NCBI GenBank assembly: GCA_051362555.1
Contig: CM120643.1
Coordinates: forward strand, 7,936,001 to 8,000,000
DNA: 64,000 bases
DNA from: Lingula anatina
Lineage: Eukaryota > Animalia > Brachiopoda
Direction of reading: 5' to 3'
Part shown: positions 2,935-56,843 of the stretch, piece by piece
Layout: every line of letters begins with the position of its first letter
Position numbering within the stretch: the stretch's first letter is position 1
Position numbers and translations under genes: made by a program
The notes under the pieces: model-generated
Databases searched by the model: none
Told to the model about the DNA's origin: nothing
The model's input: only the letters and a program-made list of their open reading frames with translations

Positions 2935-5900
2935 AAATTATAGAATATTTTTTATTCAACTATTATGTACAATTTTGAATATTTACAGTTGATTTAAAAA
3001 GGACTAATAATCAGTAATGAAGTACGTAAACGCAATGAATTAATACATAGCAGTATTATCAAAAGTTCTAAGATTTTCCATCGTCTTCATCTAGCGTCGG
3101 AACGCACACAGTCCGATAATGCAGGTCTTGTGGTCGGAAACTGGTACCAGATGCTCTCGGGCCGTGGGGAAAAACCCGTCTAAAACCTTCGTGGGGAATG
3201 CCGGGAAAGTGCCCACGCCCGGATAATTCGGTCCTTATAACATGACGAAATCGGTTTCTATTGGCACGGCGCTGCGTACAGTTCAAGAATCGTCCCGTTT
3301 AAGACAGCATTGTGTGACGGAATAACCTTTGTCTTGACTAACTATTCTCTATATATACTATACACGAGGTGAAGCCTAAAAACTTATTAAAGTAAATCTT
3401 ACAGAAAAAGGCACTGAAGCCAATAAAAAACTAACAAGAGACAACAATTAAACAGAATCATTTTGACTATCTTGGAGAATTAAAACCATAAATAAAGTTA
3501 ATCATTTTACAACTGCAAGCATCTTTCAAAACTTTATTATAGTTCTCTTTATGATAAAATGCAAACAGATTCAAGTAATATAATTATAAATCGGGAATAT
3601 CAATGATTTCAACTAAACTTTGATATATAATTCGACTTAAAATACCAGGTTTCTAAAATGTAACTTTGCACTGAAATCGCAACTACCTGCATGATACAAG
3701 TACAGAATAAAGCAAGCTTGCTTCAAAATATTTCGGATCTCACATTACACTGTATGACCGCCCATGTAAATTTCAATCTGAATTTTTTTTTGATCCGGAG
3801 AAAAGGTGCATATGTGATGAAGTGGATGTATTTGTCAAGTATAACACTTGAGAAAATCTGAATATTAGTAATGTGATCTCTATCTTGAGAGATGACAGCA
3901 TCTCTCAAGAAGAGCAGACTGTACAAAAAATATAATGAAATATTTTCTCACACGTAAAATATTTCATTACAGATTTTGCACAATCTATCAATGAAAAATC
4001 TCTTCATGTAAAAGCGTTTACATGAAGTCAGATTTTACAAAGATGTGAGGGTTTGTTAGTAAGGTTAGTGTGCAGGTTAAGACCTTTTCAAATGCCATAC
4101 TGACAAACAACTCTACATCATCAAAAGCACAAATTTGAAAAATGACCATCTCAGATTGAAACAAAACACAGACGACCACAAGTGGTGGGAATGTTTTTGT
4201 GAGCAAAAAACTATCTGCATTCAGAATGTGGATAAAGCAACTCTATATTCAAATTTATTAATATAATAATTATAGCAACTGTAGTTGTAGACTTTTCCTA
4301 CAGAAGCACACATCTTATTCAATTGATCTTGTATGGAATGAAGAATTATCTTGAACCTCAGTTTTCTCTTCTGTTATTGAAATAAAATGGTTCACTGCAT
4401 AAGGCATAAAATACAAATGAAATTTGATGCAATTTCACCTTGACATGTTTGTAATCCATGAACCCCAAATATTCTCAGCATCCAAAAGACATACATTATT
4501 AGACTGTATTCCCACTACATTCAGTATTGTATATTGCCTTCATTACCATTCCACATTCTTTATATTTGTTTGCAGAACAAGCCGTGTCCTTCAACACCAA
4601 AACTCGTGGGATGTCCGAGCATCCATGAAAGTGTCCACAGGGCTCCTTGCTAACGCTGTACAGTGTTCAACATCTTGGACATTTGGTCTTGGGTCGACGT
4701 TATCTGACATCATGCAGGCGTAATTATTGGAAAACTCCCAATTCGTAGCCTACAAATGAAATCCAACTTTTACTCAAAAGTATGAAAAGCTATATCGAAA
4801 GCTTGCAGTACCTGCAACAAAGAAAGTATATCACTGGTATTTACACACCGTTAACATTAATGAAAAGTTTGGTTCTTAAAATGATCAGAGCGTTATTTCC
4901 AAATGTACAGTGAAATATGCTTCCTTTATTGAAATATATATATTAATCTTATAGAGTAAGTACGGTAATTCTCCAATCTATACGAACGATTTAAATTAAT
5001 TATTTTTGGAAGATAATCATTTTGTTCGTAAGACTTGAAATTCAGTCTGCTAAAAATTGCCACGCGTTCGTATCCATTGAAAAACGAATGGAATACGTCT
5101 GTACCGGAAGTTATCTCCACTTACCTACATTGCTAAGTGTAAGCATTACTTTCAGATTAAATCACTGTGATCAGCTTTTAGCACAAACAAATTATTCTTG
5201 CTATATTGCAATGAATTAAAACAAACTAAACAAAAGTCGGGAATTCAAGTTAAGAAACAATTTCTTCATACTAAAGAGGTACATTTCTCCCAAGACAAGA
5301 CAACATCGTTTTTCCCTGTTATGTTTTACCAAGACAGGACAACATCGTTTTTCCCAACTTCTGTCAAAAACAGACAAGAATATTTGCGTATCCAGTTGCA
5401 TATTTTATTTAATGCGTGTTTACTTTTAATATGATTTCACATATAGAAAATTTGCAATATTAATAATGTCACCCCCCCCCCCTCGGCCTACATAAATTTC
5501 TTCCGCCAAAACAAAATACTTGAAACTCCTCACAGTAGATATCACTGACGTTAATAGAGATTATACTTGATATAAAAAATAACATCAGCTCAATTCACGT
5601 CTATTTATGAAAGTCTTTTACAGCATATTAATTTGCACGCAATCAATGTAAACTTAATTAGAAAAAATACAGAAAACTGCAGGCAAATTTGTATAAAGTC
5701 ATACGGCACCTTTTTTTTTCACAATCACCAATATCAGTAAGGTTTACCTAATAGTTGTTCATGATACAAGGTCTTTAACAAGGAAAAACAAACAAACAAA
5801 CAAAAAAAAAAGCATGAACTTTATCACAACTCAAATTAGAAAAATAAATACAATACAAGACAGAACTCCTCTTAAAAATTTTAATTTCCTAATGACTACC

Positions 5901-7420
5901 AAAAACAAAGAAAAACTCGATCATTGACTATGGATTTCTCATACTCTTCTGTTGTGCGTAGATTTTACTGGAAACCAGTTATCGGTGAAACACCGATGGT
6001 GGATGTTGATGATCCAGTGGGCCGGCAGAAGTTAAGAAATGATAATAAACAGTAAGTAATTTATGTGTACTGATGCTTTCAATAATTTCTAAATAACAAT
6101 AGGGTTTTAAAACTGGCCTGCAGCTGCCGGCGGGCAGGTTAAGTCCTTCTATCGTCTCATTCAAAAACAGCACAAATACATGATAACAATCTCTCCTGTC
6201 AAGTGGCAGTTCCTTTGTTTGGAACGGTGGTCTGAAAACTCGCTTTGACGAATCATGGGGCGAGTTTCAATTGGGCACACTTTCTTGCGTTCGGAAAATT
6301 TAAATTGTGCCCAAGGTGAGTTTAGCGATCGTTCGTACAGAACGGAGACAAAAAATTCAGATTCAGAGAAAAAATGTTTCGTTCGTAATTATTGCGGCGT
6401 TCGTATAGATTGGAGAATTACCGTAGACAGCAGTCTTCAAAAAATAAATTATTTCAAACATTTGACAAAGAAGTAAGAAAAGATGTTGCTATATTGAATA
6501 TTGTAATGTTAGCCTACATGTTAAATTGTTGACTGTCTGTGCTACTTCTAATTCTACTGTTTGTTTACATAGGATATAGTTTTTGATCACTGTCAATAAT
6601 AAGAAACGCCATAATACACCACTAATAATTCTTAAAAAATTCAGAACCACTTTTCTTAAGTTGTTGATCCCCAATAACTTACAAAGTTATCTGTATAAAG
6701 ATCCCTCAATCCTGAAGAAGTGTTTCATCTGGAGGTTTGGTAGTTGCAATCTTCATTTTTAGAATCCACCACTTTTGGTAGCCTGCAAATTTAAATTATT
6801 ACTTCAAAATGTAATAAAAGTCAACCATTTGTATATGAAATGTGTTTTTAAAGTTTGAGCAGTTTGATGGGAAATAAATATCAAAAGCACTTTTGTCACA
6901 AACTTGGAAAAAACATTCAAGCGAAATATTTTGACATGCCACTGGCGACCTTCAGACTTAATGTCACAATGGGGTATTGCACAAATTAGTTTTAACGAAG
7001 GAAAAGGAACACTAACAGCATTCAAACGACTCTACTCAAAGACAAGTTTAAGTAAAGCCTGAACAATCTAGATCCAGCGGGAGGAGTGTACTAGTATTCC
7101 ATCAAGTGTTTAATTTGTGAAGGATTTATATGGAAGAGACAAAGAGAAAGTTGAACGTTAGAGTTAAAGAACACGGGAAGGAATAAGAAAGGGTACCCGA
7201 AGAGGGAAAAATATACTACAGCCCAAGGTAGCCTTCTGCTACAACGAACCATCACAAAAAAAACATTGATTGGGAGAGTGCCAAGATTCTACAAAAAGAA
7301 AGTGACTGGAGAACAAGAGGCGTAAAGGGAGGCATATAAACCAGGAAAATGCCTAACAATCTGAACAATATAGAGAGATGGAAATAATTACTCACTTCTA
7401 CGGTGGCCTTTTATTACCAC

Positions 7421-7767
7421 AACCACAGCACTGGAGGTGGGGGTGGTAGCTGCTAGTATACAATTTCTGGACCAGTGACAACGTCCCGGAGTCACATTGG
7501 TGGCGGTGGGTGTTGGGGGCGGTAGCTCCAAGTAATCTGGACCAGTGACCACGCCTCGGAGTCACATTGTTGGTGGTGGGTGGTGGGGGCGGTAGCTCCA
7601 AGTAATCTGGACCAGTAACCACGCCCTGGAGTCACATTGGTGGTGGTGGGTGGTGGGGGCGGTAGCTCCAAGTAATCTGGACCACTGACCACGCCTCGGA
7701 GTCACATTGTTGGTGGTGGGTGGTGGGGGCGGTAGCTCCAAGTAATCTGGACCACTGACCACGTCCT
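7421..7767. repeat. 70-bp GC-rich tandem repeat, about 5 copies, within one predicted exon
   Basis: gtcacattg occurs at 7491, 7561, 7631 and 7701. Confidence 0.9.
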
Positions 7768-9099
7768 GCAGAATATTGAGACTGTTGAGGATCTGAAAGT
7801 TGACGAATGGCATGTCAAAATATTTTGTATGAATGATAAGGTTTTTCCACATCTGAGACAAATTAAAAGAGCTTTTTACCTGTGAAAAATGAGCACTGAA
7901 TTTGCTAGAGTATTTTGTAAATGGAAAACAAATGCCTGCACCGAGTGACAGGTCCCAAACATTCTTAAAACAATTGTCTAAGACCTTGCACAAAATGCTC
8001 AGTTTGTTGGAGTTGCACTGATAAAAGATTTGTATTATCTATACAATGAATGACAATCTAGTTCATTTACCCTTATCCTGTCCCACAACTTACCTTGAAT
8101 GCTCTCTAATCACAACTATTGAAGGGCTCTTGAAACACTATGATATAGCTGACATGGCTTTCTCCATTTTAGCCTTGTTAACCTTGTTAAAATGGACCGT
8201 CATCAGGACAGGCGCTCGCCAATGCTATCTGCCTCAACTACAAAATAAAAAAATTATAAGTCAAAAGTTTCCCTCTTTACTTCTCCCACCCAAATCCAAT
8301 CTACTAACCATAAATATCTTAATCCTAGGAGTGGGTCATGGGTAAAAGACATTGCCTTCTGAATTTGAGCTGTCAAATTAATGTGGCTAACGGTTTTTAG
8401 TTTTTCAAGGTATGAAAAGTCACTTAAGTGTTTTGTTTTCCCCAAAAAACATGAGTGATATGTACCTTTTAAGGGTTTCCATCTCTGTGAAACGCCATAT
8501 GCTTCTGACGCTCCCCCATGCAGCCCCCTAACATACAGACCATGGCAGGACTCAACCATGCACCAAGGATTGAATGTGACCCTCTTCTTGCAACTCTTCA
8601 AAAAAGCGGGACTTTATCAGGAATTGCCCTAATTGAGTTCTGTAAATAGAAAGGAAAATTTGATTAGTTTTCAAAAATTGTATATCAAAAGCAGTCTGCA
8701 GCCAGAAAAATTGTTGGAATCGGTAGATTTCCAGAATGTGTCAATTTGGTGACATGGCTGTTAGATTTTTTTATAAGTATGAAAAAGAGCTTTTGATTTA
8801 TTTTAAATGTAACTGTTACATCATGATTCGAGAAAAATGTCAAGGTCTTGTTAATACAAATATTAATGCAATCCAGTCTAGTCCTATTGAACTTTGTATT
8901 TGGACCAGTGAATCAAGATTCAGACATCTATATCTAGTTTTTAGGAAAGAAGGTGGACAGAATGGCCAGTAGGGTGAAAAGTTTATGGCATAGACTGCTG
9001 CTGAAAAATTAATTTTAGTGTATTGTTCTCGCCAGTAACACGGGTTACCTTGCAGGTTTTTCCGCCTCAGTGAAACACCATATGCTTCAGACGCTTCTC

Positions 9100-9930
9100 C
9101 AATGCAGCCTCCTCAACAGACCGTGGCAGGACTCACTGGCACCAAGGATTGAGGGATGTATCGGAAGTGTGCACGTGGCCCTCTTCTCCTTGCAGTTGCC
9201 ATGAAACGTTGGACAAGACTCGCTGGACGCTTCCTAGTGCAGCCACCTCGTAGACAGACCATGGCAGGACTCGCTGGACGCTTCCCCAGTGCAGCCACCT
9301 CGTAGACGGACCATGGCAGGACTCGCTGGACGCTTCCCCAGTGCAGCCACCTCGCAGATAGACCATGGCAGGACTCGCTGGACGCTACCCAAGTGCAGCC
9401 ACCTCGCAGATAGACCATGGCACGACTCGCCGGACGCTTCCTTAATGCAGCCACCTCGTAGACAGGCCATGACAGGACTCGCTGGACGCTTCCCCAGTGC
9501 AGCCACATCAAAGAGACAGACCATGGCAGGACTCGCTGGCACCAAGGAATGGTCAAAGTGGCTTAAGTGTAGATGTGGGACGTCTCCTTGCAGTTGTGTT
9601 CTGTCAACAGAAAGAAAAATGAATTAATGACTTTTCATACTATGTCAGCACTCTGCAGTCAGGCTTACCTTTAAGTGGTTTCCATCTCATTGAAACACCA
9701 CATGACAAGACTCGCTGGACGCTTCCCCAGTGCAGCCACCTCGTAGACAGACCATGGCAAGACTCGCTGGACGCTTCCCCGGTGCAGCCACCTCGTAGAC
9801 AGACCATGGCAGGACTCGCTGGACGCTTCCCCGGTGCAGCCACCTCGTAGACAGACCATGACAGGACTCGCTGGACGCTTCCCCGGTGCAGCCACCTCGT
9901 AGACAGACCACGGCAGGACTCGCTGGCTCC
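9100..9930. repeat. 52-bp tandem repeat in two homologous blocks (~9215-9540 and ~9706-9927), with degenerate copies near 9100 and 8500-8555
   Basis: Unit tgcagccacctcgtagacagaccatggcaggactcgctggacgcttccccag; for example at 9731, 9783, 9835 and 9887. Confidence 0.9.
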
Positions 9931-9984
9931 AAGGGATGGTCGAAGTAGCTTAAGTGTAGATGTGGGGTGTCTCCTTGCAGTTGT

Positions 9985-11290
9985 GTCCTGTAGACAGAAA
10001 TAAAAACGAGATTAGATTTCTTTCATTTCTCAAACCCCCCCTTCCAAAAAGAAAAAAGATTACATACCTTAAGGAGTGTAGTCGAAGTCCCACAGGTGGC
10101 GCCCATCATCTTCTATGTCCTGTAAACAGAAATAAAAACGAGATTAGATTTCTTTCATTTCTCAAACTCCCCTTCCAAAAAGAAAAAAGATTACATACCT
10201 TAAGGAGTGTAGTCGAAGTCCCACAGGTGGCGCCCATCATCTTCCATGTCCTGTAAACAGAAATAAAAACGAGATTAGATTTCTTTCATTTCTCAAACTT
10301 CCTTTCCAAAAAGAAAAAAAGATTACATACCTTAAGGAGTGTAGTCGAAGTCCCACAGGTGGCGCCCATCATCTTCTATGTCCTGTAAACAGAAATAAAA
10401 ACGAGATTAGATTTCTTTCATTTCTCAAACCCCCCTTCCAAAAAGAAAAAAAGATTACATACCTTAAGGAGTGTAGTCGAAGTCCCACAGGTGGCGCCCA
10501 TCATCTTCTTATGTCCTGTAAACAGAAATAAAAACGAGATTAGATTTCTTTCATTTCTCAAACTTCCCTTCCAAAAAGAAAAAAATTACATACCTTAAGG
10601 AGTGTAGTCGAAGTCCCACAGGTGGCGCCCATCATCTTCTATGTCCTGTAAACAGAAATAAAAACGAGATTAGATTTCTTTCACTTCTCAAACCCCCCTT
10701 CCAAAAAGAAAAAAGATTACATACCTTAAGAAGTGTAGTCGAAGTCCCACAGGTGGCGCCCATCATCTTCTATGTCCTGTAAACAAAAAAATAAAAACGA
10801 GATTAGATTTCTTTCATTTCTCAAACCCCCCTTCCAAAAAGAAAAAAGATTACATACCTTAAGGAGTGTAGTCGAAGTCCCACAGGTGGCGCCCATCATC
10901 TTCTATGTCCTGTAAACAGAAATAAAAACGAGATTAGATTTCTTTCATTTCTCAAACCCCCCTTCCAAAAAGAAAAAAGATTACATACCTTAAGGAGTGT
11001 AGTCGAAGTCCCACAGGTGGCGCCCATCATCTTCTATGTCCTGTAAACAGAAATAAAAACGAGATTAGATTTCTTTCATTTCTCAAACTCCCCTTCCAAA
11101 AAGAAAAAAAATTACATACCTTAAGGAGTGTAGTCGAAGTCCCACAGGTGGCGCCCATCATCTTCCATGTCCTGTAAACAGAAATAAAAACGAGATTAGA
11201 TTTCTTTCATTTCTCAAACTTCCCTTCCAAAAAGAAAAAAAGATTACATACCTTAAAGAGTGTAGTCGAAGTCCCACAGGTGGCGCCCAC
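9985..11290 (-). repeat. 131-133-bp tandem array, 10 copies; each unit is a 52-nt exon-like segment plus a ~79-nt intron-like segment
   Basis: gtcgaagtcc occurs at 10081, 10212, 10344, 10476, 10607, 10738, 10871, 11002, 11133 and 11265. The minus strand reads TTAAG|GTATGT...CTAAT...TTTTTATTTCTGTTTACAG|GACAT. Confidence 0.9.
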
Positions 11291-11669
11291 CAGTTTGCAG
11301 TCTGCTTCCTGGACCTGTAATAAAAAGAAACCTGGAAAGCATGGGAATATGCAATGACACTACGACTCCAGCCCACGACAGCAAAAAGGTGAAGTATCCT
11401 GCGAAGATGACCGAGCGACGATTCCTCGTGGGGAGAAGCGAAGATTTTAGCTGGCCAGCTAAGAGAAACGCCGAATCCACCGTCTAGACGTCTGCGTGTG
11501 CAGGGAACAATATGTCGAAGAACGATGCGTTGACGTAGGATGAGTAGAAGATTCGGAGAAATGGGAGTCGACTCCCGTGTCCTTTGTGCTTGATACAGGG
11601 CGCAGTACATGGCATCCTTCCTGTTGCTCTAGATCTGTCCGCTGTTGAGTGAACGCACTTTTAAAATTT

Positions 11670-11730
11670 TGCGCTTTTATACCTTTGTTGACGTATAGTC
11701 ACATGATGGCGTTCTTGTTGTCACCAATGG
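11670..11730 (-). promoter_or_regulatory. Putative Pol II core promoter (TATA box, CCAAT-like element upstream)
   Basis: Minus strand reads GGTATAAAAG, then TTCACTC (Inr-like) ~28 nt downstream. ccaat lies at ~11724. Confidence 0.45.
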
Positions 11731-12240
11731 TCAACTTGTTCAAAGGGGATGGCCTTTGATAGTGATGCGCAAAGTTGGTAATAATATCTTATCAACATAT
11801 ACATTTTCTTTTATATTTTATATTTTGATTATTCTGCCTGTCAGTTTGTTTATAATAAGAGTAATAAGTTCTAAGCAATGTCTGTGAAATGTGCAGGCAA
11901 ATTTGATGAAAATTTCTGAGCAACATACCTTCTCCCTAAAATTTTTATAGGTACGATGTCCGTTAAGCTGGTAGCTGTGAACTTCTCGCAGGCTACTTTA
12001 GTGTGCGTGTATTTGAACACTGATCCAAAATGTGGATAATGTAATTTGGCGTAGGGTGACTGCATTTTTGAGGCAGCCTGAGGGAGTATGGTTGTTCTGA
12101 TTGTAGTGAATTGTAGAGAGACAATTGGAAGTACACTGGACTTAGCATGTTCAATCACCCAAGTACTCTGAAACACATTTTGTAATCAGCTGACTTGTTA
12201 TTCTGAAAAATGAAAAAACAAATTATATTGATTTACAAAA

Positions 12241-12561
12241 CTGGAAGATAGAAGCAGTGGATCATATTACTTATGCCAGGCAGAAGAAACGACTGAATGT
12301 ATATTTTTATATTCAAAACGTCTACTGATTTAGGTAATAATTAATAGCCTGGAAGATAGCAGCAGTGGATCATATTACTAATGCAAGGCAGAAGAAACGA
12401 GTGAATGTATATTTTTACATTCAAAACGTCTACTGATTTAGGTAATAATTAATAGCCTGGAAGATAGCAGCAGTGGATCATATTACTAATGCAAGGCAGA
12501 AGAAACGAGTGAATGTATATGTCTATATTCAAAACGTCTACTGATTTAGGTAATAATTAAC
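12241..12561. repeat. 108-bp tandem repeat, 3 copies
   Basis: ctggaagatag occurs at 12241, 12349 and 12457. Confidence 0.9.
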
Positions 12562-15759: not shown

Positions 15760-15865
15760 TTAGGCCTCTCCTCTCCACTCAGGGTCCTCTTGCAACTGAA
15801 CCTGGCTGACATCCATGGTTACATCTTGAAAAATAATATATTCCCAAAAAAGTTTAAATGGTGCA

Positions 15866-15912
<47 letters not shown>

Positions 15913-17801
15913 TAAAATCAATAAATCTTGGACACATTACTTGTTGTACGTCTGAATAACACGACAGACAAGAAGAAAATAGTTGCTCTTGAAAATGGAC
16001 TTTAAGTAATGAAAATGCAAGATGACAGCTAGTAGATAGTACATGTGCATGTAATTTATTTGAAATTCTGACTTTTCAGTCCTAATGATTTAGATTATTT
16101 ATAGCCAATAATCTGAGAAAATAAAATATTCAACAGAGAAATTGATTGCAATAAATCCTGCTCGTACCTGACTGCTTAATATTCACTGCAACAAACCTCT
16201 CTACGACATCGTCCAGCTGATCAGTAGGGTCATCGTAATCACATCCTGTGTACGCTTTTTTCTCGAGGCAGTACTTAAGGAAACTACACCAAAGAGAAGT
16301 TGAAAATAAAGAAAGAATTGCCTACTTTCTTTTGTCTTTCTGTATGGACTTTCATTCACAATAAAAGAAAGAATTGCCTAGTAGACACCATTTTGTCTGT
16401 CAGTTTGGAGTTTAATTTACATGTTTTTTAACTTTCCTTTTTTTTCTATTTTTTTTTATTTAACAGTCTGTCTGAACTAAAATATGATAGCTTTCTCTTT
16501 TTAATCTTTCTATCCTCTTTGTTTTTTTTTTTGTCAGTCTGTCTGAACAAACATTAAAAATTTAATTTATGAACTTTATTAAATCCTTAACATTTCTTTT
16601 TTTGTTGGTTTGTCTGTCTGTCTGAACAAGAGTTCTTAGAAACAATGGGATTAAATAAAGATTAAATAAAGGAAAAAAATTTTGAACCTAACATGGCTGA
16701 TTTGTGTTTGGTTTGAAAAAGTCTTATAATTTGATTGAACTTTTTTTGCTTACTGATCAAATAAATTAAAATAATTCACTTCACCTGTTCCAATGTTCAT
16801 CTTGCGAAAGAAGAAACGGATTCCCTACAACAATCAATAGGGCCTTTGCTCTTGTGATCGACACATTAAACCTCTGAAAAAAAAAATTAATCCCACATGT
16901 AACTGTATGTGCGGGTGAACACTGAAGACAGTATAGTCTGAGACTAACTGTTCGTATCTCTTCTGTGAATTCCGCATCACATGGCATAGTCTCCGCAGTG
17001 CCATAGTGGAAAGAAATGGTGATGAAAATAGTATGGACTCTAGCTGCTTAAATAACCTTACATTTCAAAATATGTGTGTGCACATCCACATGTACAAAGT
17101 CTTATGAATTATGTGTTCACGCATATACACATGCCACAGCACAATCATGGTAATGACACTATCTTTTCAATGGGCAAAAATTATCAAACTTTCAAATGTA
17201 TACCTTTATAAACACATCAAGTATATAGTATTAGTGGTACTCTTACTGCACAGATTAGAACTATAGAGTAGCTTACTTTTTTATTCTGTTGTGACCATCC
17301 AATAGGAATTGGGTAGGAGTATTAAAATTTTAAAAATTAATGGCCTAAAAAATACCGCATCTGTAAAATTCACGATTTCCCCCCCACTGAAAAAAATCAA
17401 GTTATTACCATATGCTGAGGTGGCACTAGCAATTTTTTCTAAAGCCAAATTACTACTTTTTCATCACTTTTTTCTCCAAAATGGTTTAAATTTGACTAAA
17501 ATAAGTCAAATCAACCCTATTTTGTTTAGCCAATTGAAGTCAGTTTTAGCATTTGGCTTAATTGGGCAGTGTTAACTCTACCCCAGTTTGTGTGTCCACA
17601 TGCATAAGTGTACAAATGACTGACCTTTGGGTTCTTTAAAAAGCCCAGCTTGAACTCTGCGTCCAGAGCCAGGTAATCGGGGTTACTCCTCACGGTGGAG
17701 ACCATGATGACCCGTCTCTCCTGACCCTGAAATTCCTCCACACTGCCCACCTTTATGTCCCGAAAGTTTTTCTTGAACAGCAGTTGCCTCAGTTTTTGAA
17801 C
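15760..17801 (-). CDS. MOV10: MOV10-like SF1 RNA helicase, last four coding exons only (17625-17801, 16785-16873, 16168-16283, 15760-15824)
   Basis: Spliced in phase: VQKLRQ...KVGSVEEFQGQERRVIMVSTVRS...LGFLKNPK / RFNVSITRAKALLIVVGNPFLLSQDEHWN / SFLKYCLEKKAYTGCD... / DVTMDVSQVQLQEDPEWRGEA*. This contains helicase motifs V-VI and the MOV10-type PEWR C-terminus, with GT-AG junctions. Confidence 0.9.
15868..15912. repeat. (AAT)n microsatellite
   Basis: Direct reading. Confidence 0.95.
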
Positions 17802-22347: not shown

Positions 22348-25300
22348 TACATAAAAAGCAGTTTACAGATACTAAAAATGTTCTTTACATAACCACACTT
22401 ATCAAAACTATATAAAATGTGGAAAAACTCACGGTGTGCTTGGCCAATCTTTAGAAAAAACTCTGTACAGTTCACGAGCGGCTGCTGATGAGCGAGCATG
22501 GAGCCTCGACATGAAAAACAAGGTCAAATACGGAGGCCCGTAACAACACACTCCTCGCCTGATATCTGATTGATATCACTATTTAACTAATACAATAAAA
22601 GTCTACTACCAAATAGAATGCACAACATATACTGAGTTTAGAACTTAACTTAGCCACTAAATTTGTAGTGTTTTGCTATTAAATCCCTCCTACAACATGT
22701 TCGCAACTTTACCAACTGTCCATCAAAAGAATAAGTTCACATATTGGTCTGACATATTTCACAGATTTTCCATCTTTCACTGTTCTGACCTCCACAGTTC
22801 TGACTTTACTGTCACATCCACTGGGAAAAACATTTTCTACTACTCCCATTGGCCAACTGCCTCGATGTAACTCACAGTCTCTGAGCAGCACAATGTCACA
22901 GATTTTCAAGTCTTTCTGCGAAGCTGTCCATTTCCCTCGCTTTTGTAATGACTGGAGATAACCATCTCTCCATCGCTTCCAGAATGTATTAGAAAGGATC
23001 TGCACATACTTCCATTGTGACTGGTATATTTCTCTCATATCTGTTGATGTGGTTGGGGTAGGTAATGGCTCCTTCTTCTGTGTAAGCAACATTGCTGGCG
23101 TGATGATTTCTGGGTCCTCTGGATCATAGGAAATGGGAGCCACAGGTCGAGAATTAATGACAGCACTAACTTCACACATAAAGGTAACTAGAACTTCATG
23201 AGTAAGCTTTTGGGTATGGCTGGTTAAAAACATAGCATCGAGTATTCTTCTGGCGAGACCGATAAGACATTCCCAGGCTCCACCCATGTGCGATGCATGC
23301 GGGGGATTGAACTTCCACACAATTCCCATGTCATGGAGGCGTTCTTGCCCTGGATCATTTTCAACAAAGATACCTGTGGCTTTAATCTGATCCAGGGCAC
23401 CTATGAAATTTGTGCCACGATCCGATCTGATCATTTTCACTGGTCCACGGATGGCTACGAAACGTCTAAGAGCATTGATGAAGGACGAAGAACTCATTTC
23501 TTCTATAACTTCTATGTGCACTGCCCTGGTAACTAAACAGCCAAAAATCAGGGCCCACCTTTTACTTTCAGCCTGACCACCTCTTGTTCTACGCGTGACC
23601 ACAGGCCATGGACCGAAGACATCAATTCCAACCGACGTGAAAGGAGGTCCTGGGGTTACTCTATCCTCAGGTAGATCAGCCATGCGTTGGTTCAAGAACT
23701 TGCCTCGCAACTTACGACATATTACGCACTTGTACAAGATTGAAGAAACTAGTCTTTTTGCTCCAATTATCCAAAATCCCTTGGAGCGAAGTGCAGACTC
23801 TGTCACATGTCTTCCTTGGTGAGGAGAAACTGAATGGTAGTGATTCACAAGTAAGTTTGCTATGTGAGATTTCTTCGGGATAATAATAGGATGCTTTTGA
23901 CCTTTCTCCAAAGGAGCATTGCTGAGGCGTCCTCCAACACGCAGAATGTGTTGGTCATCTAGTACTGGTGATAGTGTTGTCAATTTGCTGTCTGCAGGTA
24001 CACTGGCTTTCTTTTCCACCATGCTAATTTCTTCTCTGAAGGCATCTTCCTGTGCTTTCTTTATTAGGAATATCTCCGTAGCTTCGGTATCACTAGGGTC
24101 TTTAGGAGACATTTGCTTCTTTTCCTTCCAGGCTCTGCAAAACCTCTTCAAGAGAGAAATTGCCCTGACAAGAGATTTCCATGTTGAAAACTTTTCAAAC
24201 CTAGCAGCAATGCTTCTTAACAATACTGTAGCCTTCACATTGATTGTTGGACGTATTTCACAATCTGCATCTTCGTCAACTAGGTCAAAGCTACAGTTTT
24301 CACCAACTGTTGCTGTGACAACATCTTTCAAGAAATCTGGCCCTGTAATCCACTTACTACTTGAAAAATCCTGAACTGGGGTATTGCATCTTGTGCCGCA
24401 ATTGGCTGGGTTTTTCTCTGAGGGGATTTACTGCCACTGAGACGCCTTGGACCGTTTCAATATTGTAGCTACACGGTTGCTGACATATGTGTAGAACCGT
24501 CTGGTGTGATTATAGAGATAACCGAGTACGACTCTACTATCTGTGCAATACTTAAATGTTTCCATCGGAAGGTCAAGGTGTTCAGAGATTGTATCTGCAA
24601 GCTCTGTTGCTAAGACAGCTGCACAAAGTTCTAAACGTGGTATGGTCACACCACCTGGTGGTGATAGTTTGGACTTTCCCATGATAAAACCTACTTCTAT
24701 GGAGGTATCACGACGAGCTTTCAAGTAGGCAACTGCTGATATGGCACGTTCGGAGGCATCTGAGAATATCCATACCTCCAGGGAATCTGCTAAACTGAAA
24801 TCCACTGCAGTAATCATCCTTGGAACACGGAATTCTCTCAAGGAGAAAAGTGAACTTTTCCAAGATTCCCACTGGTGACAAAGGTGTTCTGGCAAAGGGT
24901 CATCCTTCGACATGCATCTCTCTTGCTAGCATTTTCCCGGTAACTGTCACTGGAGATAGGAAGCCAAGAGGATAAAAAAAAACTGTTGACGGTTGATAGA
25001 ATCCCACGTTTGGTAAATGGTCTTTCAGGAATGAAAAGGCTGAAACCAAAACAATCCTTATCCATATTCCATGAAATTCCAAGAGATGCTTGAGTAGGAA
25101 GCTCTTCTGTAAATAGGTCAAGATTCATGAGTGTTTTCTCTCGGTCTTCTGTTGGGAAGGCATTCACCACGTCTGGAGAATTGGAAGCGATTTTATGTAA
25201 CCGGATTCTTCCATTTTCCCACAAAACCTTCTGGGTTCTTTTCACTAGGTCTGTGAGGCTTTCCGAGTCTGATCCTGTGATGAGGGCATCATCTACATAA

Positions 25301-28300
25301 AAGTTCTTGGTGACAAAATGTTTCACATCTTCATCAGCATGTTCCACTGCTTTCCTAAGGCCATAGGTAGCTACGGCAGGTGCAAAGTGTTCCCAAATAC
25401 ATGGACTCTCATTCGGTATTCAATGATCTCTTTCTTTGGGTCATTATCTCTGTACCAGAAGAATCGTAGGAAGTCTCTGTGTTCTTCATTTACTAGAAAG
25501 GAGTAAAACATCTGTTGGATATCTGCTGTGACTGCGATTCTGTCTCTCCGAAATCTTAAAAGTACTCCCAATAAACTGTTGGTTTGGTTTGGTCCAGTGA
25601 GCAGATTCTCATTCAAAGAGTACCCTTCATACTTGATAGAAGAATCAAAAACTCCTCTCACTTTATCAGGTTTTCTGGGATGGTATATGGCAAAAAGAGG
25701 AAGGTACCAGACTTCCTTTCCAGGTGGAAGCTCGGGGGCTACTTCTGCAGCTTGAGAATCGAATATGTTCTCCATGAATTCCACCATGTGCTGAAGTTTA
25801 CGTTCGTCTTTCTTTAATGCTGCGTCAGATGATCTTGCCCTGCCTAAGACTTGTGACCTGTTATTCAGCATTCTCTGTCTTGGGTGTTTGAATGGGAGAG
25901 GAGCCATCCACTGATCCTTGTCTTTTCGCATAGATTCATTCATAATGTCAAGAAATTCCCTGTCCTCTGTGGACAAACTAATGCGGTCGTCTTGGGCTGT
26001 AATTTTGAAAACATCTGAACCAATCTGATTTTCTTCTTTCAAGAGTATTGCACTGGGACATGGTAGAAAGTTTGTAGGGCGCCCGTCGTTCATGATGTTG
26101 GTCTTGAAGGCGGATATCCTCTTTGGCTGATGTACTTTTCCAAGGCAGACTTCACCAATGATTACCCATCCGAGTGGTAGTTTCTGGCCAAATGGATGAT
26201 TCTTAGAACCCAGGAGTTGATCTTGAACATGATGTGCTTCAATTAGATCTCTGCCTATGAGCAGAACGATTTCAGCTTTGGGGTTCAAGGGTGGAATCTT
26301 CTCTGATAAAGAACTCAGGTGATCATACTGCATAGCCACGTCCGGAGTAGGGATTTCAGAACGATTCTTAGGAATGTCACACTCAATTATTTCGGGAAGC
26401 ACAAAGGACTGAGTACCATCATAAGACTCAACAATGAGGTCCACAGCATGCCTTGCTGATATGTGAGTGGTCCCTGAGCATGAAGACAATGAATAACTAC
26501 GCAACCCTCCTGAGATCTGCAGCTGGTCAAAAAGAGCTGGGGTTCCTAAGGACTTGTTACTCTGATCATCATGGACAGCATAAACTGCAACAGCCTCTTC
26601 TGGTCGGCCTTTGGGAAATACCCTCACTAAAACATTTTTAGCACATGACCGTCCAACGAATCCTTCTTCACACAATGCAGTACATTTAGTAATCACCTCC
26701 CCGCCATTCGCTCTTGGGGCAACACCTTCATCTGTGGAAACGTTGTTTCTTCTCTCAGCATTGTTTCTTCTTTCTGGAATACCACTCGGGGCACCTTTTA
26801 CTGGGCAATTGGTTTGGGAAGGAAATGTTTTCTCTCCACAAGATGACTGAATGTGGCCCTTGCGACAGCAACCAAAGCAATAGCCATATTTCCTCATAAT
26901 ACACTTCTGCTCATTCGGGCTTTTCTGACCAAACACTCTGCATTCCCTGAGTTCATGGTTTGTGCCATGCAGTGGGCACTCTTCTTTTTGAGCAACATCA
27001 GTCTTCCTGCTTGTTATCATGTTTCTTTCCTTTGGTCTGTCTTTAATAGAAGTATTGTGTGTAAAGTCATACTGAAAACAAGGATTGTTCTTTGTCTGGC
27101 TCAGCTTCTTAATGAATTTGACGAATTCAGGGAATGGAGGGTAATGGACTCTGTTGTTCTCTTTGTATTTCATGGCATGAGATGTCCACTTGTTCTGTTG
27201 GTCCTGAGTTAACTTGGCTACTATTGGGTTTATTCCTACCGCTGAGTCGAGATAGGACAGGGTCAATCCACACAATTCATCTTCTTTAAAGGCCTGAATC
27301 TCTGATAGGAGATCTAAAAGTTCATACAGTTTCAGTGTATCCTTTGACGTCAGTTTAGGAAACATGTCTATTTTCTTCCTCAGGACAGATTCTATTAGCT
27401 CTGGGCTACCGTATCTTTCCTCCAATCTTTCCCAAATCTCTTTGACTGCTTTCTGAGGTTGACTTGGATTTGCTGCTTTAATACTAATTGCATGCTTTCT
27501 GCTGGTGGGACCCAGCCATCTGATGAGTAAGTCTACCTCTTCTGATGCTGACAGTGCTAAATCTTTCTTCATACTAACAAAACTTTCTTTCCATGAAGCA
27601 TATGTCTCTGGGGTTTCTTGAAATGTAGTTAATCGAGTGAGGAGCAACTCCTTCTTCAGTAGATAATTCATTATCCCTGTCATTTCTCTGCCATTTTCAG
27701 TAGCTGGTGTGAATTCAGAGGCGTTCGGATTCAACTGTTCTGGTAAGACTCTTGGTAATTGTGGTACTTCAGTACTGGTGACTGCTGATGGAACGGGTTC
27801 TGGTCTACGCGCAATTTCTAAAAACTGAGGTGCCGTCACTGCTGACACACTTTGTTCTTGTCTTGTATCTGATTGTTGGGTGTGTATGGTTGCTGCTGAG
27901 TGTCTCTCTACGAAGGCTGCTGTGCGATTTACAGCACTTTCTATGGGTAGACCGGGGGATTCTGGTCGTCTTTTATGGGGAAACAACTGTATTTCTTCGT
28001 CTTCGAGTACCTGCGCTTCGGCCTCTGCTGCAGCATGAGATTTCCTTTCCATTAACAGCTCAAGCTCTGCTTCTAATTCAGCTTTTTGTCTGTTTCTTTC
28101 TGCAGCTCTGATCACGTTTTGTTCCTCCAAAATTGCCTGTCGTTTCTTCAGTTCTACTTCTTGCTCTGCAAACTTGAGCCGTGCACGTGCCGCTTCTGCT
28201 TTCGCTCTCTTTCTGATTGTGGATGAGGTGCCTGATGATGAAACAGATCTAGATCTAGCTGACGTAGCTAATTCTGCACCCAAGTCTGGAACTGTGCTTG

Positions 28301-28812
28301 ATGGCTCTTCGGCGCCTGTTGACATCTTGAAATGGAGCTAGAGGTGAATTGACTTCTAAATGGGCTGGACCTTTTTTACTGTCTTGTTTCCGGAAAACAA
28401 GAAGATAACCCTCTTTGTTGTTTGATACAGCTATCTTTATTTCCAACAAAGGAATGTGGTAAAAAACTGAAATAAAATAAAGAAAACCTTTGTCAAAATA
28501 CTGTTGATGATATTTCTATTACTTATTGTGGCACTTACAGGCCACCGTACCTTACAAAACTAGCGTGAAACGTGCAGCATTCTTGCAATGACAAGTTTTA
28601 ACGTGAATACATAAAAAAAGCAGTTTACAGATACTAAAAATGTTCTTTACATAACCACACTTATCAAAACTATATAAAATGTGGAAAAACTCACGGTGTG
28701 CTTGGCCAATCTTAAGAAAAAACTCTGTACAGTGCACGAGCGGCTGCTGATGAGCGAGCATGGAGCCTCGACATGAAAAACTAGGTCAAATACGGAGGCC
28801 CGTAACAACACA
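22348..28812 (-). mobile_element. BEL/Pao LTR retrotransposon, degenerate
   Basis: 5' LTR ~28380-28812 (TG...CA on the minus strand). The 3' LTR remnant at 22348-22550 is nearly identical (about 3 substitutions in ~200 bp). A purine tract aggcgaggag precedes the 3' LTR. Domain order is gag-PR-RT-RNaseH-IN. Confidence 0.95.
22709..28325 (-). pseudogene. BEL/Pao gag-pol polyprotein, disrupted by frameshifts (~25380, ~24975, ~24900) and a stop (24428)
   Basis: Gag Cys/His knuckles (CPLH...HELREC, CFGCCRKGHIQSSC), protease-like DDQSNKS, RT ADIQQMF and NFYVDD, RNase H FSDASERA...TIPRLELCAA, integrase GIDVFG...RSDRGTNF...GGAWE. Confidence 0.95.
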
Positions 28813-31800
28813 GTCCGATTTGAGTTGCCGTTTGACGTTTATTGGTAAAGTGGTCGCTCTGCTGACAGAAAATAGTGTACGAAACAGACATCGAGATAAC
28901 TTTCAATATTTTCAGTGCATATTAAAAACAATTCCACGATATTCAAATGTATACAGATCTTTTTTCTTGTCGCCAACATTTGCCATGGTGAAGCTACTAG
29001 AGTCATCCTGTATTGATATAACGTTAACGTTTGTAACATATAGTATCTACATTTAATATGAAGGACCCATACAACGTTTAATACAGTGCCCTTACAGCAG
29101 TTGCTGTCTCAACTTGTATAAACGGTAGTTAAACATGTAACCACAGCTTTGGCTCCTGAAGTGCATTATATCACATTCAATTTTGACTCAAATATTTCAA
29201 CTAAAGTCGTACGATTATCTTCTATGCTTCGATAGCCCAGTCTTGGAGTGCACAGCAATGGACTAAGGCTTACATATCATGTATGGTAGTACAAATACAG
29301 CTTGTTCTTAAAGAAATCTAAGACCCAAACAAGTATAGTGTGTCTTAAAAGGAATACAAGAAAAATTGCCTTCTTTTAAATTATATAGATCAGGGTGAAT
29401 ATAGTCTCATTTGTAATCTCAAAATTATATTATTTCCCAATAAAAATCAACATTTTTGATTAAATGGCCACCCAGGTTCTTACGTGTCGAATATGGCTTA
29501 CAAAATTCTTTCTAGGAGTTTATAGCTATATGATGTTTTTTCTCCTTGAATCCCCCCCTCCCCCAATGCACTGTTATACTTAAAGAAGTCACCATCTATG
29601 TTCCTTCACCGTAAGCGGCATTTTAGTTTTGTAATTAGGCTATGAAGTGTCCCTGATGATAAATATTTATTATTGCCCTCATGGAAGAAAATAAACAAAC
29701 ATGTAGGTACAGATATTTATCTTTTTCAGTACCAATTTTACTAAGTCTTATCACTTTCGTTTAATTTGAGAATTATATGGAATAAGCAAGGATCGATAAA
29801 TTTTGTGAATTGCCTGTACACATTTTTCGTGTCATTTGCACTTTCTCACCTTTTTAAATTCCAACTAAGGATATCATTTCAGCTGTTTTCTTTCACTTGT
29901 GTATAAACGCAAATGCACATTTCCCCATTTTTTTCCCCAACCCGATTCCTGCAATAATAAACTGCTCAAGATGGGTCCAAGTAAGCACCCAGTGAACAAC
30001 TTGTTTAGTTTGTCCTCAGTCCAAGCAATTACACCTTGAAATCCAATTACACTTAAATATTTCATTTTTATTTTTTTCTTATTCATTTTTAAACTTTTTA
30101 ATCATTTTCACTTTTGCTCTTACAAAACAATTTGCACTTAGCAGCATGCAGTACATATATGACATAATAGTTTTAAATAAATGTAATTTCTTACAGATGT
30201 AGTTGAACTCCTGGTGACTTGTAATCCTATCTGCATTCTAGGCTAATTCCCAATCTATGGGGATTAAAGGTACTGTGGTTTACCCCCAGTAAAACCAAGT
30301 TTAAGAAAGCGACACATGAACAATGACAAGAGAAATTGGCCCTATCTCCTTATGTCTACTGAGCTATCCATCACATACAGTGTGATGTTTAAACTGAATC
30401 CCTTTCAGCAACAAGTTCCCCAAAAAGGCTCACCATTCAATACTCTATCTTCATACATCATTGCATGATTCAGGTAGGTACATTGATCAGAGGCAGCATT
30501 GCCATTAAGTGCCAATATATGAAAACAAATACAAGACCACAGCCCAGTAAGTCAACTTCCTGGGACCAGAAGAGCTCAATGTCATGGTAAAGGGCCAATG
30601 ATGGTACATATTTCTTCAAGACCCTTTTAAATCCTGGGATAATCCTTGTATGAACATTTCACTTAATATGGCATACAGAACCGACGTAAAATGTACAATA
30701 TCCAACTAACACCAAAGTAATCATCCTGACAGATTACGCTAACAACACTTCTTGATGCACTTAATTGGAGGATTTTTTTGTGTGAAATTTCCAGAACACA
30801 GAACATCAAAAGTCCACTTCCCATTAATGAGATTGTAGAAACATCAAAGAATGAGACCTTCATAAGTAGGTCCATCATTCTCTGGTGACTCCTGTCTCAG
30901 TCTTAAATGCTCAATGGTGTTCTGGAAATGCTTATTAATCTGCTCAGTCTCTTCATTGGATTCTAAGTTTGGCAAGTCTTCACGGATCTTTCCGATTAGT
31001 TGATTTAGCACCTGGACTGTCATCTGAGGAAAGAAAAGAAAAGAAGTCCAATTACTTATCACGAACATATATTTTTGAACAAATTGTTCCAGGGCTTGGT
31101 AAGTGAATCTTTTAATTAGGCATACAATTACTATATAGTTGGCTTCATCAAAACGCAAATCTAATATGGTTGGATATATTATTCTTAAATATAATATAAA
31201 GGTATGTGAGTGTAAGTATGTGAGTGTTTATGCTTCTACGTGTATGTGATCATGTATGCATGCGAAACTGCAGTAAAAATAAGGAATATTCAAATTTACT
31301 TTTAAATGCTTCTTTTTATAGTCGGACCCAGTAAAAATATTAAATTGATCAAAACTTTTAACGCTAACACCTGAATAAAGGGATATTTAAATTAAAATTA
31401 ATATCCATTCCATTTCCATGCATACAGTATGTATCATGGTGCATTTCGTCGGCAAATTTTTCATATAATCAATGAAAAAATCCAAATTAATAATAATAAA
31501 ACTAAAATATATCTTCTTACGTGGCAGATTGAAAAAAAAAAGTGGCCCAGCTTTAAGATTCTAGCCACTGCAACGATTATTTCACCTGGTCATTTCCTTT
31601 TTCATACATATATATGTAATGGTTGAGGATCTCCACAAAGAGCTGCACTTGTACAGAGCTGTCCATGCACTGGTTGGCTATCCTCAGGCTTTTCTTCAGA
31701 CACTCCATCACACGTTTACCATCCTGGACCTGGAAGTACATATCATCAATAAAACTTAATAATGCACTGACAATTGTCCAAATAATTATCTTTAATAATA

Positions 31801-32419
31801 AATATCCTGATGATGATTTTTCTCAGGAAAGGAAAAAAGATGCCATCAGCATCATAAAGTTAATCTGTTTGTGTCGCCTGTTGTCGCCAAATGATCTCCA
31901 GTCATGTGGAAAGTCGTACAGCGCAAAGTCCACTCTCTGACCACCTTTGAGTAACTCACCAGTTATATACACTGCTCCACCAAAAATGAGGAACATGTTT
32001 CATAATTGCTTTTTTTTTTGGTCAGTATATTAATTAATTCAATGGTTTAAACAAAATCGTCAAAATTTTCTGTTTCTTATTATTATTATTATAAATGTTG
32101 GGTTAATACATATTTAACTTTCATGAACAATGAATTTGAAAAAAATACAAATTGGAAGTCTTAGCTACTCCTTTTATTGGAAGTCTTATAAAAAAGTATC
32201 ACCAAACACTATCAGCTAGCTGTTCCAGACTTTTGCTGTTCTCATAAAAGAAAGAAGTCACCATTTTCATAGCAGCCTTCCAATTAAGAAAGCTGAACAG
32301 AGTCACAACATACAAATAGCAGGTGCTAAACTAGATACTCGCTTGGTGTCTTATAATCCCGAAGGACTGGGTATTTTTTACACATGTCACTATAATTAAT
32401 GAATATATTAATTAATGTG

Positions 32420-32592
32420 GTATACAGGAATGGAAGTCCTAGAAATGGAAGTCCAGGCTCCCATATGATTAGTACAGGTTAGGGTTCGTTGGAGTATTGG
32501 GGTCAGTATATGGGAGGAATGTCACCCGTACAAAGTAGTGGGAAGTGCACTACAGTTCCTAGAGGAATACCATTCTTGTTACAGTGGCATTA
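32420..32592. mobile_element. Degenerate MITE with internal GGTTAGGG (also at ~55672-55840)
   Basis: Imperfect inverted ends tacaggaatgg...cctag / ctagagg...ccattc(t/c)tgttaca. Confidence 0.4.
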
Positions 32593-33554
32593 ATAATAAA
32601 TTTCTATTGTGATAATCATCACTATTGGCCAGCCCTTACCTCTTCCCCTTCGGACTCTCGCGTTTTTCCTGACCAGAACAGATGTGAGCACGTAGCCACA
32701 CCACGACACTGGTCTGGTTTCTTCAGAAGTTTGGAGGCTGCCAGAGCACATTGTGTTCTGAGAGGTTCATGGTTCTCTTCTCCAAAACACTTCATTTTCT
32801 CAAATGTGGCAATGATTAAAGTGATGGCAGAGAGCTGCGCCTTACTGTCACTGATTTCATCCTCGTACAGCGAAAATGCCTGGAAGAAACAGATGTTTTT
32901 TAGATACTAGAGATATTGCAATGTGAAAGTATTTTCTGTTTTGATTTAAATAAGAAAAAATTTGAAGATTCTTAATCTACAGCTAACCAAGCAAATACTT
33001 TCATTACTTGTATCAAGACATTTAAATGTTACTCTTAATTTTCACAAACTTATAAAAATCCTACTAAAATTTTTTAACTTATAAAGAATAACTGAAAATC
33101 AAATTATAAAATTAATATAAAATATAACCTTTCTTCGAATCCAAGATCTTATTACATTGAATATTTACCAGTGATCAAACATAACATTGATCAAACAGAG
33201 TAAAGGAAACATTTCATTCATAAGACAACTGTGCTCCATGGACATCACTATTTCTGAGGTCTACAAGACAACATACTGATCTAACCCGACGCTAATACCT
33301 GTATAAATATTCACCTGTGACAAGAATTCATATGCTACAGACTCATGGTTTTCAAATCCTATCTCTCCAGCAGCCAGTCCTCCCTGAAGAAAGAGTCTAA
33401 GCGGGACCTCGGCCATCTCTGCCTTTATCAGGGCTCCTATCGTCTGGTGACAAAACTGGAAAATCTTCTGACATTTTTTCTCCCACTTATCATCCTAGAA
33501 ATGGATGAAATATGGATTGAAAATGGGAACCTGCTTCAAATGGAGATATCAAAA

Positions 33555-33593
<39 letters not shown>

Positions 33594-33595
<2 letters not shown>

Positions 33596-33837
33596 GCCTA
33601 CCCAACTACCAGACATGAATGATCCTGAATTCACCAGTAAATTGGACCACACTACCCGTTTTCAAGGTGTGTATCAGTATGCGCTTCAAAGTATCAGACA
33701 TGACACCACTCTTGCCTAGTATGCGAAGTGATAGCGATGATTCTGAGCAGGGCTGGAAAGTAGTGCATCTCATCTCAAAATTTGTTCCAGGGTATAATAT
33801 TGTGAAATGCGACCGAGTCTGGTAGTTGGGTAGGGCA
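33594..33837. mobile_element. MITE with ~19-bp TIRs inserted in a (CT)n microsatellite (also at 56842-57164)
   Basis: cctacccaactaccagac ... gtctggtagttgggtagg, flanked on both sides by (ct)n. Confidence 0.75.

Positions 33838-56806: not shown

Positions 56807-56843
<37 letters not shown>

What the first reader, a model, noticed from the sequence alone, without database searches (positions are those of the whole stretch)
9985..11290. A 'satellite' whose every unit is a complete exon plus intron: 10 near-identical introns separating nine 52-nt micro-exons
Seen: on the minus strand each 131-133-bp unit has a donor AAG|GTATGT, a CTAAT branch-point match, a pyrimidine tract and TTACAG|. Length variation falls mostly in intronic homopolymer runs, and the exon stays 52 nt except one 53-nt copy near 10510. 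The common exon variant (GACATAGAAGATGATGGGCGCCACCTGTGGGACTTCGACTACACTCCTTAAG) has a stop in all three frames and is not a multiple of 3. Inference: a tandem amplification spanning one intron created a multi-exon cassette. Splicing would turn it into a 52-nt RNA repeat of variable copy number, for example a multivalent protein-binding lncRNA, a circRNA source or a splicing-dense scaffold.
Basis: partly seen in the sequence, partly recalled or inferred. Interest (0 to 1): 0.8.

Follow-up and report, generated by a model that had tools for sequence, protein, structure and literature searches.

The report
Mostly unspliced exon-intron array, lamp-shell RNA
One short intron with its exon edges has been copied ten times in a row inside a spliced, likely non-coding RNA gene of a lamp shell (Lingula); RNA reads show the copied introns can be cut out but mostly stay in, so the array is likely a tolerated duplication by-product rather than a precise splicing device.

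Summary
RNA reads show minus-strand transcription from about 11650. The predicted exon-exon junction appears in 3 of 4 runs (4, 6 and 6 reads), but retained introns dominate: about 3% spliced in X1 and 14-20% in X7/X9. In X1 the 409- and 301-nt introns downstream are removed almost completely. A Lingula anatina RefSeq model ends in the same exon 1-to-micro-exon junction. The locus belongs to a Lingula family of at least four spliced loci. Its ORF has no outside relatives and is broken by start loss and non-triplet indels in reads. I found no small-RNA cargo or structure. The micro-exon is a chimera of the two exons flanking one ancestral intron, so the array arose by intron-spanning tandem duplication. 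Exon-plus-intron repeats are known (SmPoMuc, C19MC-HG, amphioxus mirages); this is a compact, cargo-free, mostly retained variant. Interest 0.35.

The parts
11674..11681 (-). TATA box (TATAAAAG), 31 nt upstream of an initiator-like site at about 11650
   Evidence: sequence; read depth falls to 2 (X1) and 0 (X7, X9) above 11651; start site inferred
11252..11650 (-). Exon 1 (about 399 nt). Its last 38 nt are the source of the 3' part of each micro-exon. An acceptor-like site at 11315 has no junction reads listed
   Evidence: depth 10-15 in X1, 2-7 in X7/X9; alignment
11158..11610 (-). Longest ORF (150 aa if introns are retained), matching RefSeq XP_013408834.1 at 94 of its first 96 aa; not maintained among expressed haplotypes
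   Evidence: ATG lost at 11610 in 3/6, 1/1 and 1/1 reads; 1-nt indels at 11547 (6/13) and 11321 (4/17)
9988..11251 (-). Array of ten 78-81-nt introns and nine 52/53-nt exons (11171-11120, 11040-10989, 10909-10858, 10776-10725, 10645-10594, 10515-10463, 10382-10331, 10250-10199, 10119-10068)
   Evidence: spliced and retained reads
9669..9987 (-). Exon B (319 nt), with intronless 52-nt repeats unrelated in sequence to the micro-exon; its first 4 nt start each micro-exon
   Evidence: 10 X1 reads link a retained array intron to a variant of this exon; its 3' donor was not tested by reads
9601..9668 (-). 68-nt GT-AG intron (predicted)
   Evidence: sequence; not covered by either read lay
9049..9600 (-). 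Exon C (552 nt), a duplicate of exon B (88% over 316 nt) with more 52-nt repeats
   Evidence: 3' part covered and spliced
8640..9048 (-). 409-nt intron, efficiently spliced
   Evidence: 29 (X1) and 19 (X2) junction reads; interior depth 0-1.7 (X1) and 0-7.5 (X2)
8466..8639 (-). Exon D, a diverged homologue of the 3' part of exon C
8238..8465 (-). 228-nt intron, partly retained
   Evidence: junction reads 2+5 (X1), 1+11 (X2), 3 (X7), 9 (X9); interior depth about 4-8 (X1), 2-5 (X2)
8094..8237 (-). Exon E, with a polymorphic 2-nt insertion
   Evidence: 8138 +TA in 18/27 and 14/25 reads
7793..8093 (-). 301-nt intron, efficiently spliced
   Evidence: 28 (X1) and 27 (X2) junction reads, interior depth 0-1.5
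7433..7792 (-). Exon F, beginning a 70-nt tandem repeat; the 3' end of the transcript was not determined

Best explanation
The array is ten head-to-tail copies of one short intron with its exon edges inside a spliced, poly(A)-selected minus-strand RNA that is likely non-coding; its introns are spliced in a minority of reads and retained in most, and it is likely a tolerated by-product of tandem duplication. Steps: (1, shown) each micro-exon is a chimera of 4 nt from exon B's start, 10 nt of unknown origin and 38 nt from exon 1's end. (2, inferred) One duplication with breakpoints in the two exons flanking an 80-nt intron made the unit; unequal crossing-over then expanded it in blocks (units 1/8 and 2/9 each differ by one edit). 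(3, shown) The locus is transcribed from about 11650 and its longer downstream introns are removed. (4, shown) Array introns are mostly kept. (5, inferred) Retention reflects crowding of 79-nt introns around 52-nt exons, plus loss of the spliced form: its first ORF stops in the first or second micro-exon ahead of many junctions and would be a nonsense-mediated-decay target, while the retained form would stay nuclear. (6, inferred) With no protein to protect, the host RNA tolerates the extra non-triplet exons.
For: Chimera and block structure. Junction reads 11171->11120 with exactly the 2-letter ambiguity expected of AG|G: X1 4 reads (4 starts), X7 6 (4), X9 6 (4); X7 loose ends spell the junction. 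Intron-retaining unit-to-unit joints: 42, 2 and 11; spliced share 2.7% (95% CI 0.7-6.8), 20% (8-39), 14% (5-29). X1 is stranded (about 140 vs 3) and neighbouring introns have near-zero depth, so the retained reads are not DNA carry-over. Non-coding: 0 of 13 locus ORFs pass a Pfam cut-off while both control ORFs do; only the same locus is found among 1.84 billion representatives; start loss and non-triplet indels in exons 1, D and E; three Lingula paralogue models read the same DNA modules in shifting frames. No Rfam match, box C or significant fold. Exon B/C/D duplicates and 52- and 70-nt repeats show the locus duplicates internally again and again. Short introns are more often retained in mammals (PMC4216919, passages).
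Against: The exon-1 ORF is longer than chance: 2 of 200 (retained) and 8 of 200 (spliced) shuffles reach it. Two RefSeq versions differ by 3- and 9-nt in-frame indels. All ten copies keep intact splice signals, and the array is multi-copy in three runs with differing variants, which selection could also produce. X7 and X9 reads come from diverged haplotypes or paralogues and barely cover this locus's downstream exons, so the array-versus-neighbour contrast rests on X1 alone. The 228-nt intron is also partly retained. Short reads do not link array and downstream exons on one molecule. Nuclear location and NMD were not tested. X4 gave only 2 reads.
Confidence: 0.65

Rival explanations
1. Functional nuclear-retention or scaffold module: ten strong splice-site pairs hold U1/U2AF and U-rich-binding proteins, keep the RNA nuclear, and let copy number and regulated splicing tune its release.
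For: Retention is near total in X1 while the 301- and 409-nt introns are removed. The spliced share differs between X1 and X7+X9 (Fisher p=0.0004; mates counted separately). TUG1/TERT precedent (PMC8175569, abstract).
Against: No excess conservation of exons, no significant structure, family found only in Lingula; the difference between runs may be haplotype or library.
Confidence: 0.15
2. Orphan protein gene: exon 1 plus the first micro-exon encodes a 132-136-aa protein (RefSeq LOC106172600), and the array and later exons are an intron-rich 3' UTR that limits it through NMD.
For: RefSeq models end exactly at the micro-exon stop; ORF longer than 96-99% of shuffles; in-frame indels between the two models; 8 of 18 read variants silent (p=0.10).
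Against: ATG lost in part of the reads of three runs; frameshifts at 11547 and 11321; the window allele itself differs in frame from the model; no homologue outside the locus; an upstream ATG in another frame.
Confidence: 0.1
3. Small-RNA host like C19MC-HG: each intron releases a miRNA, mirtron or snoRNA and the exons are by-products.
For: Repeated non-coding exons are the hallmark of such hosts (PMC2691840, passages); the intron folds into two local hairpins.
Against: Fold z-scores of -1.39, -1.00 and -0.16 for 3 introns tested; intron ends unpaired (no mirtron); no box C or D in the array intron tested; no Rfam match; introns are mostly not excised.
Confidence: 0.04
4. In-frame repeat protein through a cryptic acceptor 7 nt inside the exon, which would give 45-nt exons, or a circRNA source.
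For: The 45-nt piece is open in one frame; identical exons with short introns could back-splice.
Against: No joint going back 45 was listed in any of 4 runs (threshold 3 reads); 2 of 9 exons lack that AG; the libraries showing the junction are poly(A) or oligo-dT selected, which favours linear RNA.
Confidence: 0.04
5. Assembly expansion of a single unit.
For: No DNA reads were available to check the window's copy number.
Against: Units carry shared substitution patterns; unit-to-unit reads exist; folded depth is 12, 5.5 and 8 times the unique upstream depth (3' bias may inflate this); the unit-5 variant appears in 19 of 132 X1 reads.
Confidence: 0.02

Closest known systems
C19MC host gene (primates; PMC2691840, passages read)
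   Same: Non-coding Pol II transcript built from repeated exon-plus-intron units, giving spliced repeated exons
   Different: There the units are 400-700 nt, the exon is 123 nt and each intron carries a miRNA; here the unit is 131 nt, no cargo was found and introns are mostly retained
SmPoMuc exon-2 repeats of Schistosoma mansoni (PMC2576457, passages read; it also names SOWgp and spider silk genes)
   Same: Exon with flanking intron tandemly repeated up to 20 times, over 93% identical, variable between individuals, in a multi-locus family
   Different: A 27-nt in-frame coding exon in a unit of about 1 kb; here a 52-nt frame-breaking exon with stops
Amphioxus 'mirage' minisatellites (PMC3087553, passages read)
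   Same: Minisatellite-like duplication of splice boundaries, 81-100% identical units of similar size, unstable copy number, spare splice signals mostly unused
   Different: Mirages copy one boundary into an intron and leave the mRNA normal; here both boundaries and the whole intron are copied, so the copies end up in the RNA
Internal tandem repeats remodelling young human paralogues (PMC2812944, abstract and first half of Results read)
   Same: Minisatellite expansion changes exon-intron structure in recently duplicated gene families
   Different: Units average 30 bp and four copies; the part I read describes no complete exon-plus-intron unit
TUG1 lncRNA / TERT retained introns (PMC8175569, abstract only)
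   Same: Specific introns stably retained while others are removed
   Different: Single, unrepeated introns with shown nuclear location and function; neither is shown here

Membership tests
Spliced long non-coding RNA | Transcribed, over 200 nt, spliced, in poly(A) libraries | tested here: met
Spliced long non-coding RNA | No conserved ORF | tested here: met
   start loss and frameshifts in reads; no homologue beyond the locus; ORF length above chance is the caveat
Spliced long non-coding RNA | Not translated | not testable with these tools
   needs ribosome profiling or proteomics
Small-RNA host gene with repeated exons (C19MC-HG type) | Repeated non-coding exons spliced together | tested here: met
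   junction reads in 3 of 4 runs, a minority
Small-RNA host gene with repeated exons (C19MC-HG type) | Intron encodes a miRNA, mirtron or snoRNA | tested here: not met
   no small-RNA run was available
Coding exon-intron repeats (SmPoMuc type) | Repeat unit is an exon plus flanking intron, with high identity | tested here: met
Coding exon-intron repeats (SmPoMuc type) | Exon is a multiple of 3 and open | tested here: not met
   52/53 nt with stops; 45-nt variant junction not listed
Coding exon-intron repeats (SmPoMuc type) | Copy number varies between individuals | tested here: inconclusive
   variant mix and depth ratio differ between runs, but RNA depth is no copy count
Amphioxus mirage minisatellites | Unit holds one exon-intron boundary and is spliced out with the intron | tested here: not met
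   unit holds a whole intron and stays in the RNA
Amphioxus mirage minisatellites | Duplicated splice signals mostly unused | tested here: met
   3-20% use
Nuclear retained-intron RNA (TUG1 type) | Specific introns retained in poly(A) RNA while neighbours are spliced | tested here: met
   run X1; not linked on single molecules
Nuclear retained-intron RNA (TUG1 type) | Retained form nuclear and stable; splicing regulated | not testable with these tools
   needs fractionation or FISH
circRNA locus | Back-splice junction, RNase R resistance | not testable with these tools
   identical exons make back- and forward-splice joints the same

The most novel reading that the evidence does not exclude
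A copy-number-tunable 'splice-site tether': ten compact, consensus-signal introns are kept unspliced on purpose, so that a Lingula lncRNA holds many early spliceosome complexes and stays nuclear, while tissue-dependent splicing of the array releases or destroys it.
Probability: 0.12. Interest if true: 0.7.

Novelty: new variant of a known kind. Interest (0 to 1): 0.35.

Why it matters
It is a recent, sequence-resolved case of multiplying an intron ninefold by intron-spanning duplication, with RNA evidence. It shows that consensus donor, branch point and acceptor are not enough when 79-nt introns alternate with 52-nt exons. That makes it a ready natural reporter for exon versus intron definition and for NMD tolerance of new exons. 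If retention is functional, it would be a new kind of lncRNA localisation module. If neutral, it is one more splice-junction duplication in a genome where earlier, unchecked scan notes report many.

Tried and rejected
No whole genome is held, so paralogues and intronless copies could not be searched in DNA. The run search gave 'no RNA holder listed' in the index and listed no DNA run; I laid 5 of the 9 raw RNA runs offered (X1, X4, X7, X9 on one array unit; X1, X2, X7, X9 downstream). A 29-nt exon pattern gave 0 matches in metagenome contigs and only the 10 array places in the window. Rfam: one chance match on the wrong strand, E 0.86. Pfam: only sub-threshold hits on locus ORFs. The shared 52-nt length of micro-exon and downstream repeat is rejected as homology (500 of 500 shuffles score as well). 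No terminal inverted repeats flank the locus among the 25 longest of 122 pairs shown, so no transposon reading. A read-through of MOV10 was considered: its stop is at about 15762, and X1 depth is zero at 11804-11955. A hairpin covering the pyrimidine tract could explain retention but is not significant (z -1.39). A paralogue model seems to read through a similar short intron (4 of 1000 shuffles, but the 68-nt intron scores as well): a lead only. The ESM Atlas gave no answer. Literature searches (listings only) showed no description of this locus; Zhuo 2007 and Gao and Lynch 2009 were seen only as titles in a reference list. No supplements were read; those of the mirage and human-paralogue papers may list whole-intron units.

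Full report
Observation. The array is as described: ten minus-strand introns of 78-81 nt (AAG|GTATGT ... CTAAT ... TACAG|) and nine exons of 52 nt, one of them 53; TRF gives period 131, 9.9 copies, 96%. A full set of intron signals arose in 4 of 5000 shuffles of the unit and in 1 of 477 other 131-nt pieces of the window (my own thresholds). Exons are not significantly more conserved than introns (p=0.32).

Context. The window is animal DNA with the last exons of a MOV10-like helicase (AAA_12 hit; the name MOV10 is my recognition of the sequence), two VPS35 copies and an LTR element. The helicase stop lies at about 15762. The array sits 4.5 kb further on, in a separate minus-strand unit with a TATA box at 11681 and an initiator-like site at about 11650. 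Protein searches returned only Lingula anatina gene models: three for the downstream repeats and LOC106172600 for exon 1, identical in 94 of the first 96 residues. I infer the window is Lingula.

Origin. The micro-exon's last 41 nt match the end of exon 1 with two mismatches (0 of 500 shuffles), and its first 4 nt are the start of exon B. The unit is therefore one ancestral intron with both exon edges. Units 1 and 8, and 2 and 9, differ by one edit each, which suggests block duplication. Exons B, C and D are older duplicates of one another, and the locus also holds 52- and 70-nt exonic repeats. The downstream 52-nt repeat is unrelated to the micro-exon.

RNA. I laid four runs on a stretch with a single unit, so that reads of all units fold onto it. 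X1 is stranded: depth about 140 on the unit and 10-15 on unique exon 1, falling to 2 above 11651; first mates lie on +, which in most libraries means minus-strand RNA. The exon-to-exon joint 11171->11120 was seen in X1 (4 reads), X7 (6) and X9 (6), with the 2-letter ambiguity expected at this junction; the tool marks the letters between as 'not known', but X7 loose ends spell the junction. X4 had only 2 reads. Intron-retaining unit-to-unit joints numbered 42, 2 and 11, and 144, 24 and 36 reads covered the intron near the acceptor, giving spliced shares of about 3%, 20% and 14% (mates counted separately, so rough). No joint for a cryptic 45-nt exon was listed.

Neighbouring introns. On 7772-9211, X1 and X2 splice the 409-nt intron (29 and 19 reads) and the 301-nt intron (28 and 27) with little or no intronic depth. 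The 228-nt intron is partly retained. Retention thus tracks the array and perhaps short length, and is not DNA contamination. X7 and X9 reads there are mostly under 95% alike and show neither of those two junctions, so they derive from diverged haplotypes or paralogues. One loose end translates like the start of paralogue model P0003 (read by eye). The contrast between array and neighbours rests on X1.

Independent annotation. Both RefSeq isoforms end with exon 1 joined to one micro-exon and its stop, so another assembly carries the micro-exon and annotates this junction. Whether RNA supports that model I could not see.

Coding potential. For: the exon-1 ORF is longer than 96-99% of shuffles, and the two RefSeq versions differ by in-frame indels. 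Against: its ATG is changed in 3/6, 1/1 and 1/1 reads; 1-nt indels occur at 11547 (6/13) and 11321 (4/17); exons D and E carry non-triplet indels (8596 in 25/26; 8138 in 18/27); 8 of 18 variants are silent (p=0.10); phmmer over 1.84 billion representatives finds only the locus itself; paralogue models read the same modules in different frames. I take the RNA as likely non-coding.

Cargo and structure. No Rfam family, no box C or D in the array intron tested, and no fold beyond shuffles in 8 of 8 sequences.

Not an assembly artefact. Unit-to-unit reads, folded-to-unique depth ratios of 12, 5.5 and 8, and a unit-5 variant in 19 of 132 X1 reads show multi-copy arrays in the sampled animals. The exact copy number in the window was not checked against DNA reads.

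Mechanism. Shown: chimeric unit, transcription, minor splicing, major retention, efficient splicing downstream. Inferred: expansion by unequal crossing-over; poor splicing through crowding; loss of spliced molecules by NMD; nuclear holding of retained ones; neutrality. Confidence 0.65. The main rival is a functional retention or scaffold module (0.15).

Known systems. Exon-plus-intron repeats are in print for coding SmPoMuc (passages), non-coding C19MC-HG (passages) and, as single boundaries, amphioxus mirages (passages). The array works like a cargo-free C19MC-HG built by a mirage-like process, but fails a defining test for each family. Earlier scan notes, unchecked, report many mirages in this genome and similar arrays in a fungus and a lizard; they lowered my sense of surprise but are not evidence. 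Searches listed no paper on this locus.

Verdict. Real and transcribed; spliceable but mostly retained; a new variant of a known kind; interest 0.35.

Noticed in passing
window 9217-9926 and 7433-7771: Intronless exonic repeats of 52 and 70 nt in the same transcript; the 52-nt unit has no stop in any minus-strand frame, so automated models read through it cycling all three frames (P0001-P0003)
   Followed up: partly
window 7772-9211, reads: Reads under 90% alike and loose ends show at least one more expressed paralogue; with three RefSeq loci this is an apparently undescribed Lingula family of spliced repeat RNAs
   Followed up: partly
window 12108-12240: In X1, first mates on the minus strand reach depth 10-14, suggesting plus-strand RNA diverging from the promoter, or reads from a dispersed repeat next to the 108-nt x3 array (12241-12560)
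   Followed up: no
window 29250-36431 and 52504-59816: Tandem segmental duplication of VPS35 exons, 91-94% identical
   Followed up: no
window 22348-28816: LTR retrotransposon with 97% identical LTRs and broken gag-pol frames (Bel/Pao type by my recognition), upstream of the helicase exons I located
   Followed up: no
window 4961-6425: Element with perfect 28-nt terminal inverted repeats, likely a non-autonomous DNA transposon
   Followed up: no
window 3140-3220 (minus strand): Three NF-kB-like sites (motif recalled) close together in a GC-rich patch near a CCAAT box
   Followed up: no
window 15762-17800 (minus strand): Last exons of a MOV10-like helicase; AATAAA near 14020
   Followed up: partly
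window 56842-57000: Exact 79-nt tandem duplication present in only one of the two VPS35 copies, inside an insertion with inverted ends
   Followed up: partly
window 11184-11334, run X7: Two reads join exon 1 directly to an array-type acceptor, pointing to a haplotype with a different 5' edge of the array
   Followed up: no
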